Assembly (NCBI GenBank): GCA_951406725.2
Contig: OX597828.1
Span: 7,378,001-7,442,000, forward strand
Reading direction: 5' to 3'
DNA: 64,000 nt
From: Octopus vulgaris
Lineage: Eukaryota
Shown in pieces: positions 694-59,560 of the stretch. Position 1 is the stretch's first letter. Each line of letters opens with the position of its first letter. The position numbers were made by a program, and so were the translations under genes. The notes below the pieces were generated by a model. The model made no database searches. It was not told the origin of the DNA and saw nothing but the letters and a program-made list of their open reading frames with translations.

Positions 694-1615
694 ATATGTA
701 TATATATGTATATATATATATATATATATTTATATACACACACACACACAAGCACATAGTTCAATATGACATGTGTATAAGTACATATTTAAATGAATAT
801 CTATGTCTATATATATATATATTATATAGCATATATATATGTATATCATATATATATATATATATATATATATACGCATACACACACACGCACATATAGA
901 TATATATATGACCATGCGTGCGTGAGCGTGTATGAGCGTGTGCGTACGTATATATGTACATGCACACACACACACACACACCACATGCACACACACACAC
1001 GCACGCACGCACGCACAAATATATGCATCTGTCCTACCGATTGTATCCAAAAGTAAGAACACCGCCTTAGGGGCCGATACAGCTGGAAATGGGAGACGTC
1101 TCTGGTGTTTCTGTAAAGATGCAAAGGGTCGGAAGTGTCACCGCGAGGCATCTCGTCCAGCACTGTAACAGTTCCCCTAATCCATCGCCTTGGATTGGGG
1201 CTTTGTTAATGACCCCGAAAAGATGAAAGGGGAATTTGACTTTCAGCCGCGGAAAGAAAGAATTTAAACAAATGCTGCAAGGCTTTCGAGACATTTGTCT
1301 ACGACTCTATCAGTTCACCACCTCTCTCACCCTCTCTCTCTCTCTATTCATATATATATATATATACATGAATATATGAATATATATATATATTTGTGTG
1401 TGTATAAACATATATATATATGTGAATAAGCACGCACGTACAGACCTTATATATAAAGTGAATTCGATATGTATATTTACACACAAACACACACACACAT
1501 CTATATGCATGTATGTATGCATGTCTCTCTCCTTCCCCTCTCTCTCTCTCTCTTTCTCTTTCTCTCTATCACTTCTTCCCTCCCTCTCTATCTCTCTCTC
1601 TTTATAAATATATAC

Positions 1616-1653
<38 letters not shown>

Positions 1654-2061
1654 ATAAACATACGTATATTATACCCAGTTTGCCTTAATATATATGTGGT
1701 GCTTATACTACAAGAAAGAAAAAAAACAGGCCTCGCCCTTTGCAGATAACAACTGAAGAATAGAAACAGGAAAGACCCGAAGTATTCATAAAATTAGGTC
1801 ATTGTGGAATCCCTGTTTCCAGAGTGAATACCTGTAATTATAATTCTATCCTACTTTGAAATATAAGCAGGAATGTAACGCAAAGGTATGATCCTTGATA
1901 AGTATCAGAAAACCCTACTCAACTCCATTGAGTACTAAACTAGATATTGTTTGAAATAATATGTATACATTTGTTACGAGGCTTTCTGGGGGTCGATTTA
2001 TTCGACAAATTCTTCATGGCCTCAGTTAAAAGACTGATACATGTAAAGGAATATATATATA

Positions 2062-2289
2062 TATTTTATTGCCCACAAGGAGCTAAACACAGAGAGGACA
2101 AACAAGGACAGACAAAGGGATTAAGTCGATTACATCGACCCCAGTGCGTAACTGGTACTTAATTTATCGACCCCGAAAGGATGAAAGGCAAAGTCGACCT
2201 CGGCGGAATTTGAACTCAGAACGTAATGGCAGACGAAATACCGCTAAGCATTTCGCCCGGCGCGCTAACGTTTCTGCCTGCTCGCCGCC
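2062..2289 (-). mobile_element. tRNA-derived SINE, family D monomer
   Basis: Minus strand reads GGCGGCGAGC..GCAGAAACGTTAG..GAGTTCAAATTCCGCCGAGGTCGACTTTGCCTTTCATCCTTTCGGGGTCGATAAA; more than 15 related copies in the window. Confidence 0.9.
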
Positions 2290-2343
2290 ATATAACTATG
2301 CATGTTTGAGGGTGTGTGCGTGTCTCTGCTTGAGAGTGTGTAT

Positions 2344-2383
<40 letters not shown>

Positions 2384-2615
2384 TTGTGAGTTTATTTTGA
2401 CGTCACTCGATTGAAATACCAATATCCCGTATCTTAGGATCTTTGCCACATGTGTACTCTGTACGTGAACGTGCAAACGCACGCGCACACATCCACACGC
2501 ACGCACGCATACACTCACTCACACCCCTACACACAGGTAACATAGACAGATACACACATAGACTCAGACACCATCCTATCGTCCCATTTCAACGTACATA
2601 ATCTTCATAATCGTA

Positions 2616-2643
2616 TGATGACGACGACGACGCCAACGACGAC

Positions 2644-2685
<42 letters not shown>

Positions 2686-2762
2686 CATGATGATGATCAT
2701 GATGATGATCATGATGATGATCATGATGATGATGATGATGTGATGATGAGGCGATGATGATG
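2616..2762. repeat. (GAT)n/(GAC)n microsatellite
   Basis: Read directly from the sequence. Confidence 0.95.
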
Positions 2763-2992
2763 GCGGTAGCAATGACACTGTCAGTTGGGAATTAGGTTCG
2801 GCATTTCATTGTTCTGAGTTCAAATTCCATTGAGAGACTACTACTTGTCATTCCGACTCACCTGGGATCGATATCTTAAGTCCCAATGAATGCCAAAAGC
2901 AACTGTAAGTTTGATATGTCATTGTTTTTTCGCTTTTTGCTATATTTATTATCTTCCGACCTTTCTTTCCCTCCTCTCTACTCTCTCCCTCT

Positions 2993-3072
<80 letters not shown>

Positions 3073-3457
3073 GGAGAGAGAGTGTGGGAGAGAGTGAGAT
3101 TGCGAATAGAGATATTAATAATGTCTAGTTAGATATTCGCGTATATTTACCTGCATGCAAAAATGTACCTGCGCATATACGTACGTGTATGTATGTATGT
3201 ATGTATGTATGTATGTATGTATGTATGTATGTATGTATGTATGTGTGTATGTATGTATATATACATGTACACACACACACATATGTACATTCATGTAAAC
3301 AGGCATTTACGTGTGCATATATATATAAGTATGTATGTGTGCATGTATGTATGTATGTACATACTTACGCATGTATGTATACAACAAAGGCATATATACA
3401 TAAATGTATATATGTATATACATACATACATATATACATACTTATATATATATATAT

Positions 3458-3498
<41 letters not shown>

Positions 3499-3501
3499 TA
3501 C

Positions 3502-3556
<55 letters not shown>

Positions 3557-5604
3557 TATATGCATATATATATGTGATAGTGTCTCTACTTATATAAGTG
3601 CCTACCTGGGCATATATGCATATATATATATGTGATGGTGTCTCTACTTATATAAGTGCCTACCTGGGCGTTAGTGTACGAGTGTGTGTGTAGTTAAATG
3701 TGTGCATGCTTGCATGTGTCTTGATAATATATGGAATTGGTTATACATTCTCTACCAGCAGACCTAAATACAAAATAATACTCCGTCTGGACAGATATAT
3801 GAAATATGGCGTCTCAAAGGGGGAAGAAACCAATCCTTTTTACTGATACAACAAACGCATTGATTTATCGCACTTGTTGGAGACAGGTGGAATTCTGATT
3901 GATTAAATCAGCTGGAGACATATTGTGGATGGGCCGCATTGTAGTGTAATATTGCTGATTACAAAACACTATCGTTGTGCTGATTTTCACTAAAAGCTCT
4001 GATTTGGATTTATTTTTCAAGTTTGCTTTACCTCTGAGGTTTGGTTATTCTTTGAGCAAGCTATTGGTAAATTGATTTATAACATGGGTACAAGGTCACG
4101 TATATGGTGTTGTGTGTGGGGATCGTGAAATCGATTAGAGAACTGCAACCATTGTCCTGTTTTCTGTAATATTTTTTTTTCTATTTTTGTTTTGTTTGTG
4201 GGGCGCCCAAAGCCGACAAAAAATGTTTTCAATAAATTCAATTCAAACTTTAGTAAAAGTAAAAAAGTACATAAAACACCACTCGCCCTGTCTGAAATAC
4301 AAACTATCAAATACTAGCTTAAAAGATGCACTTGTACGGACTTTAAAGCTGCCGTGGAGCGCTAATTGGGCCTGTGGCCCAAAACTAAAGAGGTCTATTT
4401 TCCTCTTTAGGGGACAATAAATAAAGCATTTATCGGTACCCTGTCAATATTGTATTACTTTAAATTCAGCTTAAATGAAAAACTTGTATGTTCACAAATT
4501 TCTGGAGTTTTTATAAAATTTGAATTGTTAGCGTATAACAAATCCTCACCCAGACCTGATTCCAATGCTGGATGTTCAAGAACCAAAATGAAAGGCAGAT
4601 GTTCAATCTCGGGATCATCCTGATAGATATAAGAAGTAAAAATAGATTACATAATGTGACTGGGATAAAGAAAAAAAACCCGCATGACTGAATGCAGAAA
4701 TATCATCGTGATTCAAAAAAAAAGGACCTGTAACCCATTTCTAGGCTACATGAGTCTTATAAGTTCTCAGTTATACTTTTTTTATAATCTCCTCTCTGGA
4801 AGGATGAAGAACGCAATTACAAAACGACGATTTATAGACTTATAGCTTACAAAAAATAAACGTAACAAGATAGTATATGGCGTATTCTCTGACGCTATAT
4901 CAAGTCTGTCAGTTATGATGCAAAGTATTACAAAGTTGTAATAAATCATAAGAGGGTATCAGGTGTATTACACGTCCAACATTAGTGTCTTTCTGTTCGT
5001 AAGCTTTCGTGACATGAAAATGTCTAAACAGGCTTAATATACATATTATAAGTTTACATAACATTCAGTGTTATGTAGGTTAATAATATACATAATATAT
5101 GCTTGTTTCAATGTACATTTCTCGAGTGGCTTTCAGTTCAGTCAATTTGCATCACTTTATGTAAATTTATTGCTATTAACGTGTGGCTCTCAACCTTCTA
5201 TATTTCAACAATCCTTTCACATTTCATAGAACGCTCTTTCCCAATGTTTAGTATCAAAAATTGCTCATAATACACTTGTATGCATAGGCAACCTCGCAAT
5301 CAACTTTTGGAAGAAAAAAGGCCACTTACAAAAACACACAGTATACAGACATATAAACAAGCTTAAAAAGATATATATTCAAGTACATGCAAACCTAGAA
5401 GCATATTTACCCGCGTACTGAAATACAGAAACCCACACTAACATAAATATGTTCGAGTATATACTGATTGTTTATATAGACAAATGCACTTATAAAACGT
5501 ATGTCTATGTATATGATATACATATATTATACGTGTATGCACACACACATACACACACACACACATATTTACATATATACATACATCTCTCTCTATCTAT
5601 CTCT

Positions 5605-5696
<92 letters not shown>

Positions 5697-5721
5697 GTAT
5701 ATATATATGTATATATATATA

Positions 5722-5930
5722 GGTTTGTTGAGTTAGAGGTAGAAATATTCTCTAAGGAATAGAAGTATCCATTACACTACTGGTATATTACCTATGTTTA
5801 ACCATGGGTATACATAAATTTTAGGTAAAGACAAGGTTAAAATGGGTTTATCAAGAATGAAAGTTTAAAGAAAACAGAGAATAAAGAAGTATGTTGTTCA
5901 TCAGTACTTCTCCATTTTCTGTTTTCTTTA
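5722..5930. mobile_element. Small fold-back-terminated element between (TA)n and (CA)n, probable Penelope-like pLTR remnant
   Basis: 26-bp inverted repeat 5866-5891/5905-5930 (3 mismatches) whose loop contains CTGATGA on the minus strand. Confidence 0.45.
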
Positions 5931-6293
5931 CACACACACACACATGCACAAAAGGGAGTGTATGGGAGTATGTGTGTTTGCGCGTATGAGTATACGTTCA
6001 TGCAAGTCTTTGTGTTAATGCATCTATAATCACACAAATATACATGCAAGCATTAAACTACCACTCAGCTAATTCACCCTAAGCTTGTAGCTGGGAAGCT
6101 TGTGAATATATGCGTACGTACACACTTACAGTATATAATTTCATTCAAAATTGACAAATAGATAACATCAATGAAAAATGGTACGTACAAGAAATTAACA
6201 AATGAAACGACGACAACCATAAGAAATGTAACTAAATAACGGCCATAAACAATTAGAAACGAAGCATAAGTTAATGTAGGGTGCAGTAAGTCA

Positions 6294-6383
<90 letters not shown>

Positions 6384-6409
6384 ATACATGCTTATGCATA
6401 TGTACATGC

Positions 6410-6530
<121 letters not shown>

Positions 6531-6987
6531 ATCAAATAGGGTAATAACATAAATTATTATTACCAGTGGCCTAGCACAAAAGACAAATTAGTCATTAGAC
6601 AATATATTATTCATATAGAAATATAATAAAAGGCTTCCAAATAAGGAAGCGTAGTGCTAGAGACACAAAAAGGGATAAATTCAAGGAAGGAATGAAAATC
6701 AAAAACATTTACCATTAAAGATATATCCCAGACTGATCAGTTTCTACCTCTTTCTAGTAAACAGACAGAATATATTTGCTAAGGCAAGGTTCGTCAGTAG
6801 GAAGCCTTCTTAATCCTAGATGTACAGAGCGTTAGAGCACGTGTAGATCTAACGGTTTGTATATCTTAACTTTCCAAACCTCCGCGCAGACGCAAAACAT
6901 ACCCGGCGACATAGATTTTAATTTTCATTCCTTCCTTGAATTTATCCCTTTTTGTGTCTCTAGCACTACGCTTCCTTATTTGGAAGC

Positions 6988-6993
<6 letters not shown>
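6531..6993 (-). mobile_element. (TA)n-embedded Penelope-like pLTR element with partial inverted duplication
   Basis: ~75-bp inverted repeat 6625-6700/6917-6993; hammerhead at 6726-6802; (TA)n on both sides. Confidence 0.7.
6726..6802 (-). ncRNA. Type I hammerhead ribozyme
   Basis: UCCUA-CUGACGA-ACCU..AGGU-A-GAAA-C-UGAUCA-GUC-UGGGA: stem I UCCUA/UGGGA, stem II ACCU/AGGU, palindromic stem III. One extra A precedes GAAA. Confidence 0.75.
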
Positions 6994-7062
<69 letters not shown>

Positions 7063-7166
7063 ATATATATATATATATATATACATGTACATACATACAC
7101 AGGTACACATATATCAATCTAGCTAGTGTTATAGATAGCAAATGCATGCATACTCCTATACATACA

Positions 7167-7260
<94 letters not shown>

Positions 7261-7264
<4 letters not shown>

Positions 7265-7470
7265 ATCCAAACAAGAAAACACAAAAAAACAAAAAAACAC
7301 AACAACGCAAGGACGTGGAACAAATAAAGTATTATTGGACGCTCAGGAAAGAAGGGAAGAAGGAGGGTTTAACGTTTCGAGCGGAGCTTTTCGTCGGAAA
7401 CATAGGAGAAGGAAAGATCCCGAGAAGGGAAGACAGAGGAAAAAAAATCGCCAGCGGTACTCACGAGGTC
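7261..7470 (-). mobile_element. Short non-autonomous Penelope-like element with minimal hammerhead (7367-7401)
   Basis: GUUU-CCGACGA-A-AAGC-UCC-GCUC-GAAAC-GUU-AAAC (U4C plus one stem II mismatch). Abuts (TA)n and is related to family E. Confidence 0.6.
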
Positions 7471-7543
7471 AGGGTACCGCACGAGTGGAATTATATACGA
7501 AAGAAGGTTTGAAAATGCAATTTTAAGATGTCTATTTACTTTA

Positions 7544-7609
<66 letters not shown>

Positions 7610-7806
7610 GCATGTACATATAAATTAGCATGTATATAAACATGTATGAATGTATAATTAATTAATCTTTTGTTAATAAATAATTGTAACCCTTACACTG
7701 CTATTCGAAAACTTTGCTAGCCAGACTATTACTTTGGTTTTTACCTATCCTTTAAATTACATTCCCCACACACGCATACACACACACACACACATACATA
7801 CATACA

Positions 7807-7837
<31 letters not shown>

Positions 7838-7887
7838 GTATATATATATATATATATGTGTGTGAGTGTATGTAATTATGTATAACC

Positions 7888-7965
<78 letters not shown>

Positions 7966-9136
7966 ATGTATGTATGTATGTATGTAGAGTTAATATCCAT
8001 AGATAGTGAACCGGAACAATAAACATGTGATGACCAGACAGAACGTACTGCTCTCCAAAAAATACACACGTAAATGTTACAAACCATCGCCGCCTCAAAC
8101 ACTCTTGCCACCACATCGACGAGACCCACCGCTGCCACCAATTCCAAAGCCTTCACCGCTGCCGTGACGAGCAGCACCACCAGCAGCGACAGCAGCACCA
8201 TCACTTCCACAATTATTATTTACCACCAGCATCAAGATATAAACCACGCATCATCCTCTCCACTATAGATGACGGTATGCCATTACTGTCAGCAGCACCG
8301 CATCCAGATAACAGTATGCCACCGCCGCCACCACCACCACCACTACCACCAGCACCAACAACAACAACAACAACAGAAACAACAATGGCTGTAAGTAAAA
8401 TAACAACAAAACAACTGCAACAACTTCTAGAATATAAAGAAGAACATCGAAATCAGCGGAAAATCTACAAAATAAAAATGAAAAAAAAAGCTGCCCTACT
8501 TATATCAATAACATCAATTGCATCCCTTCCACACTCTTCATCCCATTCATAATCTTTGTGATATCACCAGCATCATCATGTCAATCGCCACCGTCGCCAC
8601 CACCACCGCCGCCACCACCATCACCACTGACAAGATCTCCACTACGAACGACTACCACCGACATCATGCAAACAACAATACGAAAAGCTTCGTAACCACC
8701 ACTACTACTAATACTAATACTACAAGACGACCAATGCTGCTGCTGCTACTACTACTGCTACTACTGTCGCAATCATAATTATATTACGGCCAACGAGAGG
8801 TCGTTCAAGTCGTCGCTCGACCTGCTAGAAATAAAAACCAAATCACACCTTACTCTCTTGAAAACGATATCTGATACGTCATAGTCCAATGTAGTTTAGT
8901 TCCAAGATACCTGAGAATTCTGCTACCCTTCCTGTAAAATGTGGCTTTTGCAGGAATGCTATTTATCGTAGGGCTCCTTACACTTATTACCATTGTTCCA
9001 TCAAGCAAGAAAAACCACATATAGGAAACTCGATGTCGTTATTCGATCTGTAGAAATAGCACCCAAACCGTCTTTTAAAATGTGCGGTTTAGGATAGTAA
9101 AAGTCTGTGTTCTCTATTCGTGAAAAAAAACGATAA

Positions 9137-14079: not shown

Positions 14080-14920
14080 GTTAGGGCGTCGGAGAAAATG
14101 CATCGCGTTATTTGTTCCGGGTCTTTACGTTCTAAGTTCAAATCCGACTAATATCAATTTCACCTTTTCATCGCTCTTGGGTCGATAAAGTTATATGGAA
14201 CCAAGAACTCAAGTTATGGGATCAATATAATCGGCTAATCCTTATATCCAAATTTCTGACTCTTTGCCCATTTCAGAAATTAAGGGCAATGGCCTGTAAA
14301 AGCGTTAGAGCGTTGGAGAAAACGCTTTGCATTATTTATTCGGCTTTAAGGTGTTGAGCTGGCAGAGTCATTAGCACACCGAAATAAATGCTTAGCGGCC
14401 TTTCTTCCGACTCTTTACGTCCTGTGTTCAAATTACAACGAGGTCAACTTGGCATATCATCTTTTCGGGGTCGATAAAATAAGTATCAGTTAAGCATTAG
14501 GATCCCTGCAATCATCTAACCCAACCCCCTAAAATTGCTGGGCTTGTGCCAAAATTCGAAGCCATTACTCATACCGGCTAAAGGTTCTGAGATGGCAGAA
14601 TCGTTAGCGCGTCGGACAAAATGCTCAAAAGCATTTCGTCCGTCTTCATGTTCCAATTTCAAATTCCGCCGAGCTCGACTTTGTCTTTTATCCTTTCTGG
14701 GTCGATAAAATACCAGTCGAGTATTGGAGTCGATGTTATCGACTAGCACCATTTCCCCAAAATTCTGGTCTTGTGCCTAGGAGTATTTGTTCCGGCTATC
14801 TAAGTTCTGAGTTCAAACAACACCTGGTTGAACTTTGCCTTTCATTCTTTCGAGATTGCTAAAAGAAAGTAACAGTGAAGTCAAGGACTGTATTCAGTAT
14901 GATTGACTAATCCCATCCTC
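14080..14920 (+). mobile_element. Cluster of old, diverged family D SINE copies (about 4 units)
   Basis: Repeated GTTCAAAT..CTTTCATC.TTTCGGGGTCGATAAAA cores with the older tail CCCCAAAATTGCTGG.CTTGTGCC. Confidence 0.75.
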
Positions 14921-28583: not shown

Positions 28584-29339
28584 GGTTTGCTGTGCTTGAA
28601 AAGATATGTCAAGCTAAATAAGAGCGTGGTTATCCTTGTATACAGTTTGTCCACTACATCCCTCTCCAGCAGACCCTTTCTTACCTTGCGGATTCGTGGC
28701 CGCTGGTGTCACGTAAAAGGCACCCGTACCGGTGCCGCGTAAATGCACCCGTGCCGGTGCTGCGTAAAAGCACCCAATACACTCTATAAATGGTTGGCAT
28801 CACAAAGGTCAACTAGCCGTAGAATCCATGCCAAAGGCGGCGAGCTGGCAGAAACGTTAGCACGCCGGGCGAAATGCGTAGCCTTATTTCGTCTGCTGCT
28901 ACATTCTAAGTTCAAATTCCGCCGAGGTCGACTTTGTCTTTCATCCTTTCGGGATCGATTAAATAAGTACCAGTTACGCACTGGGATCGATATAATCGAC
29001 TTAATCCGTTTGTCTGTCCTTGTTTGTCCTCTCCGTGTTTAGCCCCTTGTGGGTAGTAAAGAAATAGGTATTTCGTCAGCCGCTACTTTCTGAGCTCAAA
29101 TTCCGCCGAGGTCGTCTTTGCCTTTCATTCTTTCGGGGTCGATAAATTAAGTACCAGTTACGCACTGGGGTCGATGTAATCTTTGTCTGTCCTTGTTTGT
29201 CTCCTCTATGTTTAGCCTCTTGTGGGCAATAAAGAAATAAGAATCCATGCCAAAACAGGCACGGAGCCTGGCCAGCTCTTCAGCCGGTCAGCTTCTGTCG
29301 AACCGTCCAATCCATACCAGCATGAAAAACAGATGTTAA

Positions 29340-39766: not shown

Positions 39767-39928
39767 AAAGCAGTAAAGCATTCCCTAATGGAGTGACACT
39801 ATACCTTTAACAGCGTGAAATATATTATTTCGATTTGAGAATACAAGCCGACAAGGGCAAAATCTTGAAGTCACAGCGAACTCAAAATAATTAATTGACA
39901 TATATCCATATACTGATAACTGTATATC

Positions 39929-42257: not shown

Positions 42258-42601
42258 AATTTTGGTAAGAAGCTTGTTTCCCAACCACATTGTTCCGGTT
42301 TCAGCTCCACTGCGTGACACCTTGGTTGAATGTCTTCTAACTATAACACTGCAATCTTAGTACATTGAAAGATAGAGGCAATAGTTATGGTTGCATTGCC
42401 TGTGGTTATACGTCTGCTCAGTCTAGGCTAGTACTTTGCAACATTTTCTCACTTGCGGTATACTTGTATTCTTTTCAAAATTCGGCGGCACACCTGAAAT
42501 AAAAATATATCTAAAAGTATAGGGGACAAAAATATATATTCAGTTTACACAACGGCACACTTAGAATCGTTTTGTGGAACACAAGTGTGCCACAGCATAC
42601 C

Positions 42602-52464: not shown

Positions 52465-53245
52465 TTTTTTTTTATTACCCAAAAGGGGCTAAACATAGAG
52501 GGGAGAAACAAAGACAGACAAACAGATTAAGTCGATTACATCGACCCCAGTGCGTAACTGGTACTTTATTTATCGACCTCGAAAGGATGAAAGGCAAAGT
52601 CGACCTCGGCGGAATTTGAACTCAGAACGTAACGGCAGACGAAATACCTATTTCTTTACTACCCACAATGGACTAAACATTGAGGGGACAAACAAGGGCA
52701 GACAAACGGATGAAGTCGATTACATCGACCCCAGTGAGTAACTGGTACTTTATTTATCGACGCCGAAAGGATGAAAGGCAAAGTCGACCTCGGCGGAATT
52801 TGAACTCAGAACATAAAGTGAGACGAAATACCTATTTCTTTACCACCCACAAGGGGCTAAACATAGAGGGGACAAACAAGGACAGACAAACGGATGAAGT
52901 CGATTATATCGACCGCGGTGCGTAACTGGTACTTTATTTATCGACGCCGAAAGGATGAAAGGCAAAGTCGACCTTGGCGGAATTTGAACTCAGCACGTAG
53001 CGCCAGACGAAATACCTATTTCTTTACTACCCACAAGGGGCTAAACATAGAGGGAACAAATAAGGACAGACAAACGGATGAAGTCGATTATATCGACCCC
53101 AGTGAGTAACTGGTACTTAATTTATCGACCCCGAAAGGATGAAAGGCAAAGTCGACCACGGCGGAATTTGAACTCAGAACGTAACGGCAGACGAAATACA
53201 GCTACGCATTTCGCCCGGCATGCTAACGGTTCTGCCAGCTCACCC
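52465..53245 (-). mobile_element. Family D SINE tetramer (one headed unit plus three headless ~184-bp units)
   Basis: The junction GACGAAATAC|CTATTTCTTT occurs at ~52647, ~52831 and ~53015; head at 53195-53245. Confidence 0.92.
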
Positions 53246-57306: not shown

Positions 57307-57536
57307 GAGCTGGCAGAAACGTTAGCACGCCGGGCGAAATCCGTAGCCGTAGTATTTCGTCTGCCGTTATGTTCGGAGTTCAAATTCCGCCGAGGTCCAC
57401 TTTGCCTTTCATACTTTCGGGGTCGATTTAAATAAGTACCAGTTACGCACTGGGGTCTATGTAATCGACTTAATCCCTTTGTCTGTCCTTGTTTGTTCCC
57501 TCTGCGTTTAGCCCCTTGTGGGTAGTAAAGAAATAG
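57307..57536 (+). mobile_element. Family D SINE monomer
   Basis: GAGCTGGCAGAAACGTTAGCACG..GTAGTAAAGAAATAG. Confidence 0.9.
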
Positions 57537-57890: not shown

Positions 57891-58259
57891 TACCAGGCTG
57901 TGGCTCACATGGTTTCTGATCTTAACTGATTGGAAGCGTTGTCTTGTACATGTTTTGTCTTAGTGTAAAATATGGGCTACAGCAAGTATTCTGCTCAATG
58001 CCACAGATTTGCTTGTCAGTTGTTTGACCATAGCCAGTTGAGCATGTTCCTTGGTGGCTGACAATATGTGTATCTCTGATCACAAGCAGAAGTAGTGGGG
58101 GGGGCAGCATGGCCATGTGTTGAGAGGAGTTATTAGGGGTTTGAATAGTTCACCTCTGGAAACATGGGTGTTTCGTTCATCATCCTTAAGCATTCTTTAT
58201 TCAGGGTCCTTTGAGCGGGATTGGCTAACTATTCTGCCAGGTCACTATCTTTTATTTGT

Positions 58260-58960
58260 TTTTAGTTTATGCACAAGGCCAGCAGTTATGAGAAAAGACT
58301 ATCAGTCAATGGTTCATAAGTACTTGACAGGTAATTCATTTTATCGATCACGCAGGGATGAAAGGTAAGATTAAAGTTTAAAACATAGACAGCTGGAAAA
58401 ATACCTATTTCTTCACTACCCACAATGGGCCAAACAAGGACAGACAAACGGATTAAGTCGATTATATCGACCCCAGTGCGTAACTGGTACTTAATTTATC
58501 GACCCCTAAAGGATGAAAAGCAAAGTCGACCTCAGCGGAATTTGAACTCAGAACGTATCGGCGGACGAAATACCTATTTCTTTATTACCCACAAGGGACT
58601 AAACATAGAGGGAACAAACAAGGACAGAGAAACGGATTAAGTCGATTACATCGACACCAGTGCGTAACTGGTACTTATTTAATCGACTCTGAAAGGATGA
58701 ACGGCAAAGTGACCTCGGCGGAATTTGAACTCAGAACGTAACGGCAGACGAAATACCGCTAAGCATTTCGCCCGGAGTGCTAACGTTTCTGCCAGCACGT
58801 CGCCTTTATAATTGTAATTTATGGTAGAGATTTGAAACCTCCACTTGCATGTTATGTTACTACTTCTAAATACCCTTACCTACTGGGCCACCAAAGCAGC
58901 AACACAACTGGAAAAATACCGCTGAGTATTTTATCCGATGCTCGAAAGATCCTGGCAAAT
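58260..58960 (-). mobile_element. Old family D SINE split by a younger D dimer (58406-58806)
   Basis: 13-bp direct repeat CTGGAAAAATACC at 58393-58405 and 58908-58920. The old body lies to the left and the old head to the right. Confidence 0.8.
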
Positions 58961-59149: not shown

Positions 59150-59560
59150 AATGATAATAATGCTTTCAAATTTTGACACAAGGTCAGCAAGTTCATGTGA
59201 GGGCACTAATTGATTACATCGACCTCAGTGCTCAACTGGTTCTTAATTAATCAATCCCGAAAGGATGAAAGGTTAAGTCGAGCTCGGCGGAATTTGAACT
59301 CAAAATGTAAAGACGGACGAAATGTTACTATGCATTTTGTCCGGCGTACTTAACGACTCTGCCACCTCATCACCTTAAAAGACATGATAATAATCCTTTC
59401 CACTCTAGGCACAAGACCTGAAATTTCGTGGGAGGAGGTAAATTGATTATATTGACCCCAGTGCGGAACTGGTACTTATTTCATCGACCCGAAAGGACGA
59501 AAGGCAAAATCGACCTCGGTGGTATTTGAACATAAAGACGGACGAAATGCCGCTCACCAA
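59150..59560 (-). mobile_element. Two older family D SINE copies
   Basis: Core ATCGACCCGAAAGGA.GAAAGG.AAA.TCGA.CTCGG with the old-type tail. Confidence 0.75.

What the first reader, a model, noticed from the sequence alone, without database searches (positions are those of the whole stretch)
58260..58960. SINE D inserts into the anticodon-loop position of its own older copies
Seen: an old, diverged D copy is split exactly at CG|GTATTT. Its body lies at 58260-58405 and its head at 58908-58960. A younger D dimer (plus ~100 bp of unexplained sequence, 58807-58907) lies between 13-bp direct repeats CTGGAAAAATACC. The site is the loop/3'-arm boundary of an 11-bp hairpin (GGGCGAAAUGC-6nt-GUAUUUCGUCU) at the anticodon-arm position of the tRNA-like head. 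Solo D insertions are followed by similar targets (GGTATG at 42601, GGATAT at 57536, AGAATC at 29240, GATATA at 39928). Inference: the mobilising endonuclease's preferred site occurs inside the SINE itself, so the family self-targets.
Basis: partly seen in the sequence, partly recalled or inferred. Interest (0 to 1): 0.8.

Follow-up and report, generated by a model that had tools for sequence, protein, structure and literature searches.

The report
SINE inherits target from read-through RNA
A short jumping repeat in this animal genome lands again and again at two five-letter spots inside its own older copies, and its two variants prefer different landing sequences, likely because the RNA that runs past each copy's end pairs with the cut DNA, which would make target choice heritable through RNA rather than set by the enzyme alone.

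Summary
The nested insertion is real. An older relative of SINE D is split at C|GGTATTT by a D dimer plus a second tRNA-like repeat, between exact 13-bp duplications. It recurs genome-wide: 97 exact matches, outer copies older (0.83 vs 0.92 identity, n=25).

The 'anticodon loop' is not the main cause. An antisense GGTACTT site in the body is hit about as often (1.05 vs 1.31 per 1000 sites). The same hairpin reading GGCAT is hit less (0.42). Ordinary targets have no hairpins, and their GGTAT bias (~500-fold) covers the ~130-fold hotspot.

Endonuclease alone is doubtful. T-tailed copies duplicate GG-starting targets (22 of 40), CA-tailed copies never (0 of 12). Each variant's target matches the sequence that follows its tail in multimers. 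The tail-sharing L1-group LINE shows GGTAT in 0 of 21 ends.

Best reading (0.6, inferred): read-through RNA anneals about 5 nt to the nicked target, so preference is inherited and self-insertion builds multimers (61 of 129 events). Main rival: a second LINE with a GGTAT endonuclease. Alu has a comparable self-insertion hotspot; this is a new variant.

The parts
58921..58957 (-). Head of the older host SINE (old family sharing head and core with D)
   Evidence: nhmmer E 1.3e-7 to a profile of 76 old-type copies
58908..58920 (-). 5' copy of the 13-bp target-site duplication; begins GGTATTT on the minus strand
   Evidence: exact match to 58393-58405
58807..58907 (-). Repeat E: second short tRNA-like element with A-box- and B-box-like motifs, carried 5' of D
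   Evidence: 42 genome hits; 5' of D also in L002, L004, L007, with duplications around E+D in L004 and L007; relaxed ARAGORN calls only
58575..58804 (-). Young D unit 1, full length, T-type tail
   Evidence: 93% to the natural reference copy L056:1586-1816
58746..58773 (-). Head hairpin of unit 1; its own unused GGTATTT site starts at 58757 (reference position 48)
   Evidence: sequence and fold
58406..58574 (-). Young D unit 2, headless, starts at reference position 48, T-type tail
   Evidence: 86% to the reference copy
58393..58405 (-). 3' copy of the target-site duplication, directly after the D tail
58250..58392 (-). Body and old-type tail of the host SINE
   Evidence: nhmmer E 1.9e-12
28836..29239 (+). 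Comparison: T-48-CA dimer moved as one unit; 15-bp duplication starting AGAAT
52467..53244 (-). Comparison: D tetramer, every junction at position 48; no duplication found

Best explanation
D is a tRNA-type SINE that shares its 3' tail with an L1-group LINE, inserts preferentially at GGTAT-like sequences and so lands at two such sites inside its own relatives; the preference is likely set by read-through RNA that pairs about five bases with the nicked target. Shown: nesting, age order, the sequence preference, its coupling to tail variant, the shared tail, multimers moving as units. Inferred: (1) D has no four-T terminator, so transcripts run on into whatever follows the tail. (2) The LINE protein binds the tail and nicks with loose specificity (G is avoided at -1, A is common at +4). 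(3) Priming succeeds where the freed DNA end pairs with the RNA just past the tail. (4) The new copy is then followed by the same motif, so its progeny inherit the preference. (5) A founding insertion at position 48 of an older copy gave tail-GGTATTT templates, which explains both the GGTAT lineage and the headless multimers. The CA lineage keeps the LINE-like AGAA preference, which matches D position 15.
For: Left (target-derived) duplication copies in non-D flanks start GG in 22 of 40 T-tailed vs 0 of 12 CA-tailed events (p 5e-4), and AG/AA in 2 of 40 vs 7 of 12 (p 2e-4); swapped-flank false rate 19 of 2297. First-100 genome lists, hand-counted: GG 54 vs 11 and AG 5 vs 39; without GGTATTT rows, GG 35 of 81 vs 3 of 92. 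Internal junctions follow the same split: T tails go to position 48 in 88 of 150; CA tails go to position 15 in 13 of 46 and to position 48 in 2 of 46 (arrays make these non-independent). The match to the position-48 sequence is enriched base by base for 5 nt. LINE 3' ends with a near-identical tail: GGTAT 0 of 21, AGAA 6 of 21 (hand count; p 0.001 vs 14 of 40); 2 of 8 fetched LINE ends sit on D position 15. Dimers or trimers with a T first unit and a CA-type last tail are followed by GG in 0 of 11 (hand count; duplication verified for 3), so era alone does not explain it. No T4 run in the reference copy. Precedent for RNA-target pairing: PMC3649969, PMC7265360 (passages).
Against: All evidence is correlative; no RNA 3' ends were seen. 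Only one LINE subfamily was sampled (21 ends), so a second partner with a GGTAT endonuclease is not excluded. The -1 bias (C 20, G 4 of 56) cannot come from RNA pairing, so the enzyme contributes. About a fifth of T-type and a third or more of CA-type ends fall in TA-rich sites that match neither junction. The CA set with verified duplications is small (12). GGCAT hairpin sites are still about 40-fold above uniform (10 hits), more than their rarity in ordinary flanks (1 of 40) predicts, which leaves room for a structural or longer-homology effect. Both internal hotspots lie at or in a hairpin 3' arm. Two of 40 nests at GGT sites had CA tails.
Confidence: 0.6

Rival explanations
1. Endonuclease only: two partner LINEs, one cutting at GGTAT and binding T tails, one cutting at AGAA and binding CA tails. 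The junctions at 48 and 15 are consequences, not causes.
For: Many Tx1-clade LINEs are target-preferring and pass this to SINEs (PMC4494074 passages). There is a base bias at -1, outside the duplication. Several LINE-like families share variants of the tail.
Against: The sampled LINE carries both T (12) and C (9) tail variants and none of its 21 ends is GGTAT, whereas D copies with the TA tail have GGTAT in 6 of 12 verified duplications (hand count). The variants differ at one stem base. No GGTAT-flanked LINE was seen.
Confidence: 0.25
2. Structure-guided targeting: the hairpin at the tRNA-like anticodon arm (as extruded DNA or by long RNA-DNA homology) attracts insertion beyond what the five-base motif gives.
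For: The cut is at the loop/3'-arm boundary; the antisense site is also in a small hairpin arm. GGCAT hairpin sites keep about 40-fold enrichment. Single-headed young-plus-old heterodimers are common (15 of 129 events are T-48-old) and their heads carry old-family letters (10 of 22 vs 12 of 92, p 0.0015), which suggests further hidden nests.
Against: GG-start targets outside D have no hairpin excess (n=23, p 0.97). The measured hotspot (~130-fold) does not exceed the motif bias (~500-fold in T-type). Overall head divergence of the heterodimers is not significant (p 0.15, n=11). No tRNA call at normal thresholds.
Confidence: 0.1
3. The pattern comes from events other than targeted insertion: 5' template stutter, unequal recombination or gene conversion between abundant copies.
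For: Most position-15 pattern hits (21 of 23 distinct loci) are not duplication-bounded nests and look like repeated short heads. Position-105 hits include tandem runs. L056 and L067 carry extra heads. A 24-unit array on C5 shares private variants.
Against: At position 48, 20 of 25 second parts lack the young tail, outer parts are more diverged, and 19 of 25 duplicate non-reference letters. Antisense nests (13 of 14 with the repeat) cannot arise by stutter. The GGTAT bias is seen in non-D flanks.
Confidence: 0.05

Closest known systems
Alu-in-Alu insertion hotspot (Levy et al. 2010, PMC2836564; abstract and passages)
   Same: A SINE inserts at a single nucleotide inside its own copies; their model invokes the target's T stretch and the poly(A) of the inserted Alu.
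   Different: There the site is the A-rich linker, in sense orientation. Here the motif is a mixed sequence, there is a second antisense hotspot, and two variants of one SINE prefer different motifs.
RNA-target annealing in L1, R1Bm and SART1 priming (PMC3649969, PMC7265360; passages)
   Same: A few terminal base pairs between RNA and the nicked target favour priming; read-through target sequence improves accuracy in R1Bm as cited there.
   Different: There pairing reinforces an endonuclease-defined site. Here it would shift a non-autonomous element away from its LINE's own preference and be inherited through the flank.
SINEU and Tx1-Mar (Kojima 2015, PMC4494074; passages)
   Same: SINEs with target preference for another repeat, tandem insertions, and RNA-derived 5' additions (as with E here).
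   Different: SINEU and its LINE share the target; D's T lineage and the sampled LINE do not.
Tandem SINE multimers and SINE-derived satellites (PMC10702118, PMC11481361; passages)
   Same: Multimers and arrays built from part of a SINE after one complete head.
   Different: Those papers' passages attribute them mainly to unequal recombination. Here unit boundaries coincide with insertion hotspots, and 13 of 56 duplication-bounded events are multimers.
Octopus tRNA-derived SINEs OK, OR1, OR2 (Ohshima and Okada 1994; citation seen only)
   Same: Recalled resemblance of D to octopus SINEs; a lead only.

Membership tests
tRNA-derived SINE | Short, interspersed, many copies | tested here: met
   231-nt unit; 46,645 and 13,512 exact tail matches
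tRNA-derived SINE | Internal A and B boxes | tested here: met
   Motif matches at reference 11 and 73 (motif definitions recalled)
tRNA-derived SINE | Head homologous to a tRNA, with the hairpin at the anticodon arm | tested here: inconclusive
   0 of 205 heads at ARAGORN score 90 or 100; 50 calls at 80, the commonest register putting the loop at the anticodon position without a nameable anticodon; no Rfam tRNA hit
tRNA-derived SINE | Variable-length target-site duplications | tested here: met
   56 of 116 events, 8-21 bp; control 0.8%
tRNA-derived SINE | 3' tail shared with a LINE | tested here: met
   Last ~45 nt match 3' ends of RT-coding elements
tRNA-derived SINE | Transcribed by RNA polymerase III | not testable with these tools
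   No raw RNA reads were offered
Tx1 clade (partner LINE) | APE endonuclease, RT and C-terminal zinc domain; L1-group affinity | tested here: met
   RVT_1 and weak zf-RVT in L089; full-length homologues carry PF03372, PF00078 and PF13966; homologue P0004 is closest to L1 ORF2p (E 7e-68) vs R2 (1e-21)
Tx1 clade (partner LINE) | Groups with Tx1 rather than L1 in an RT tree | not tested
   No named Tx1 references were available; the Tx1 label is recalled from motifs
Tx1 clade (partner LINE) | Sequence-preferring insertion | tested here: inconclusive
   AGAA in 6 of 21 ends, the rest varied
Octopus OK/OR1/OR2 SINEs | Sequence identity to the published families | not testable with these tools
   Paper and consensus sequences not held

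The most novel reading that the evidence does not exclude
A non-autonomous SINE has reprogrammed its partner LINE's target choice with its own read-through RNA. Each insertion's duplicated target becomes the guide for the next generation, so target preference is inherited in cis by lineage. One self-insertion started a feedback loop that homes the family into its own relatives and seeds multimers and satellites.
Probability: 0.45. Interest if true: 0.75.

Novelty: new variant of a known kind. Interest (0 to 1): 0.55.

Why it matters
How much the endonuclease and how much RNA-target pairing decide where non-LTR elements insert is an open question, studied mostly with poly(A) tails, where the two signals coincide. 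Here two variants of one SINE, tens of thousands of copies each, and their tail-sharing LINE show different mixed-sequence targets, which separates the signals in a natural experiment. If pairing is the cause, target choice is steerable by a few RNA bases past the tail, and self-insertion offers a direct route from SINE to multimer to satellite. If a second LINE explains it, the finding reduces to an ordinary self-insertion hotspot like Alu's.

Tried and rejected
Empty allele: contigs of 7 runs were laid. The first call was swamped by repeat copies; in the second no run showed an orthologous empty site (X11 laid nothing; X12 and X13 only other SINE heads). This is no evidence either way. Position-15 pattern count (43) rejected as a nest count: 2 of 23 distinct loci had the duplication. 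Position-105 control (56 hits) could not be inspected; several are tandem runs, so it is used only as an upper bound (0.14 per 1000). E+D junction count gave 0, but the allowed gap was one base too short even for L002, so it is uninformative. Same-RNA re-copying as the origin of dimers: unit 1 and unit 2 are no more alike within than between events (p 0.3-0.8), so it is not supported. Rfam and ARAGORN at normal thresholds found nothing in the window; three weak snoRNA hits were ignored. Earlier scan notes: none. The Albertin 2015 paper was not held. Literature searches for a prior description listed none on this SINE's targeting; subscription papers and repeat libraries in supplements (Bonar 2026, of which part 1 of 3 was read) were not seen and may name the family.

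Full report
Setting. The window is G000:C15:7378001-7442000 of a 2.8-Gb animal genome. The repeat resembles octopus tRNA SINEs (recalled, untested). Positions 'ref n' refer to one natural young copy, L056:1586-1816, 231 nt. The unbiased sample is 1.664 Mb in 15 blocks including the window.

The locus. On the minus strand the order is: old head, 13-bp repeat, repeat E, full D, headless D from ref 48, 13-bp repeat, old body. The repeats are exact, and head and body sides each match a profile of 76 old-type copies (E 1e-7 and 2e-12). The cut is C|GGTATTT. D ends in AAGAAATA and the duplication starts right after it, as in copies whose duplications start with other letters. E has 42 genome hits and A/B-box-like motifs. 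It precedes D in 3 of 9 other loci fetched, and in L004 and L007 a duplication encloses E+D. The E-D junctions differ, so repeated 5' addition is as likely as one master (inference). Independent runs hold the filled allele; no empty allele was found.

Recurrence. A pattern of the ref 46-56 motif, up to 13 bases and a D head gave 97 matches, control 0. Of the first 30 loci (29 distinct), 27 had an inner tail followed by the repeated site. In a stricter pass, 25 were scored (4 dropped for no tail in range, 1 as duplicate). Outer head and body were 0.83 and 0.82 identical to the reference, inner 0.92 and 0.93; 20 second parts lacked the young tail; 19 duplicated a non-reference letter. A few outer values rest on short alignments, and some all-young cases are probably head stutters.

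Position controls, as hits per 1000 estimated sites, against a uniform expectation of 0.0099: ref 48 GGTAT 1.31; antisense GGTACTT near ref 136, 1.05 (154 hits; 13 of 14 distinct loci with the repeat); ref 48 with GGCAT 0.42 (10 hits; 3 of 3 inspected are nests); ref 15, 0.48 but only 2 of 23 true nests; ref 105, 0.14, uninspected and partly tandem; ref 74, 0.01, none of 4 a nest. Site numbers come from the 1.66-Mb sample (14 to 236 counts), so the ratios are rough. Only six positions were probed, not the whole consensus. Nesting is thus strongly non-uniform but not confined to the head hairpin.

Target preference outside D. 56 of 116 terminal events had a duplication (control 19 of 2297). T-tailed events start GGTAT in 14 of 40, about 500-fold over background, which covers the roughly 130-fold hotspot. 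Enrichment is significant for five bases and not for the sixth onward. GG-start targets show no hairpin excess (p 0.97). Base -1 avoids G and favours C, a likely enzyme signal.

Coupling to the tail. T tails (T 13 bases from the end) and CA tails differ in target: GG 22 of 40 vs 0 of 12; AG/AA 2 of 40 vs 7 of 12, read on the left, target-derived copy. Genome lists agree (first 100 rows each, all on C1, hand-counted, duplications mostly unverified). Internal junctions split the same way: T to ref 48, CA to ref 15. Nests at GGT sites had T tails in 38 of 40; the two nests at ref 15 had CA tails. Both units at the finding's locus are T-type.

Partner. D's last ~45 nt match the 3' end of elements with RT and zinc-domain frames whose full-length homologues have an APE endonuclease and resemble L1 ORF2p; Tx1 is a recalled label. 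Copies are 90-95% alike, similar in age to D. Of 21 LINE ends none is followed by GGTAT and 6 by AGAA; 2 of 8 fetched ends continue into D from ref 15. The LINE behaves like the CA lineage.

Mechanism. The simplest account of a preference that tracks what follows the tail, and that the sampled LINE lacks, is RNA-DNA pairing at priming (inferred). D has no four-T run, so transcripts would read through. Pairing with the nicked strand has precedent in L1, SART1 and R1Bm (passages of PMC3649969 and PMC7265360; co-transcription also cited in PMC4494074). An inner copy transcribed into its host's remaining body gives a head-body-tail-body template. Multimers are 61 of 129 young events, and 13 of 56 duplication-bounded events are multimers, so they move as units. 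Units within a dimer are not more alike than between events. Long arrays probably grew in place (inference from shared variants). Single-headed young-plus-old heterodimers may be seamless nests; the evidence is mixed (p 0.0015 on two diagnostic letters, p 0.15 on overall divergence, n=11). The main rival, a second LINE with a GGTAT endonuclease, was not excluded.

Known cases and novelty. A single-nucleotide self-insertion hotspot is published for Alu (PMC2836564), and SINE multimers and satellites for reptiles and bivalves. Nine searches listed no report of lineage-specific, flank-inherited target choice in a SINE, nor of this family's targeting; closed-access papers and repeat libraries were not seen. 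Verdict: real, recurrent self-targeting by primary sequence; the anticodon location is probably incidental; the tail-coupled target shift is the new part. New variant of a known kind, interest 0.55.

Noticed in passing
window 58807-58907; L002, L004, L006, L007: Repeat E, a second short tRNA-like element (relaxed calls mostly Thr), occurs alone, in clusters (L006) and joined 5' of D with differing junctions.
   Followed up: partly
L090 about 1477-8050 (G000:C5:60091477-60098050): Arrays of 184-bp headless D units (24-mer and 7-mer) sharing private variants: a SINE-derived satellite with boundaries at the position-48 hotspot.
   Followed up: partly
L204-L207, L210-L211, L225-L229, L056, L067; tandem hits: Short D heads (about 25, 62 or 118 nt) repeated in tandem 5' of full copies; many 118-nt ones end at a T run, suggesting template jumps onto prematurely terminated transcripts.
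   Followed up: partly
L281, L285: The partner LINE's 3' end runs directly into D from position 15; the two loci share about 1.9 kb at 93%, so they may be one source or independent nests.
   Followed up: partly
C3 block + 29257; L002; rows AGAAACT: CA-type ends often fall at AGAAACTG, apparently one site inside another abundant repeat family of this genome.
   Followed up: no
e.g. C15 block + 96197, C7 block + 90413, C5 block - 80835: A pyrimidine-rich repeat family with a related 3' tail is almost always followed by TATC microsatellite, suggesting a microsatellite-associated LINE.
   Followed up: no
old-type copies: About half of old copies read GGCAT at position 48-52 (a perfect hairpin, weaker target), while 0 of 44 scored young solo copies do.
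   Followed up: partly
window 59212-59376, 59439-59554, 14356-14876: Further old-family copies with at least two different old tails, often in tandem clusters.
   Followed up: no
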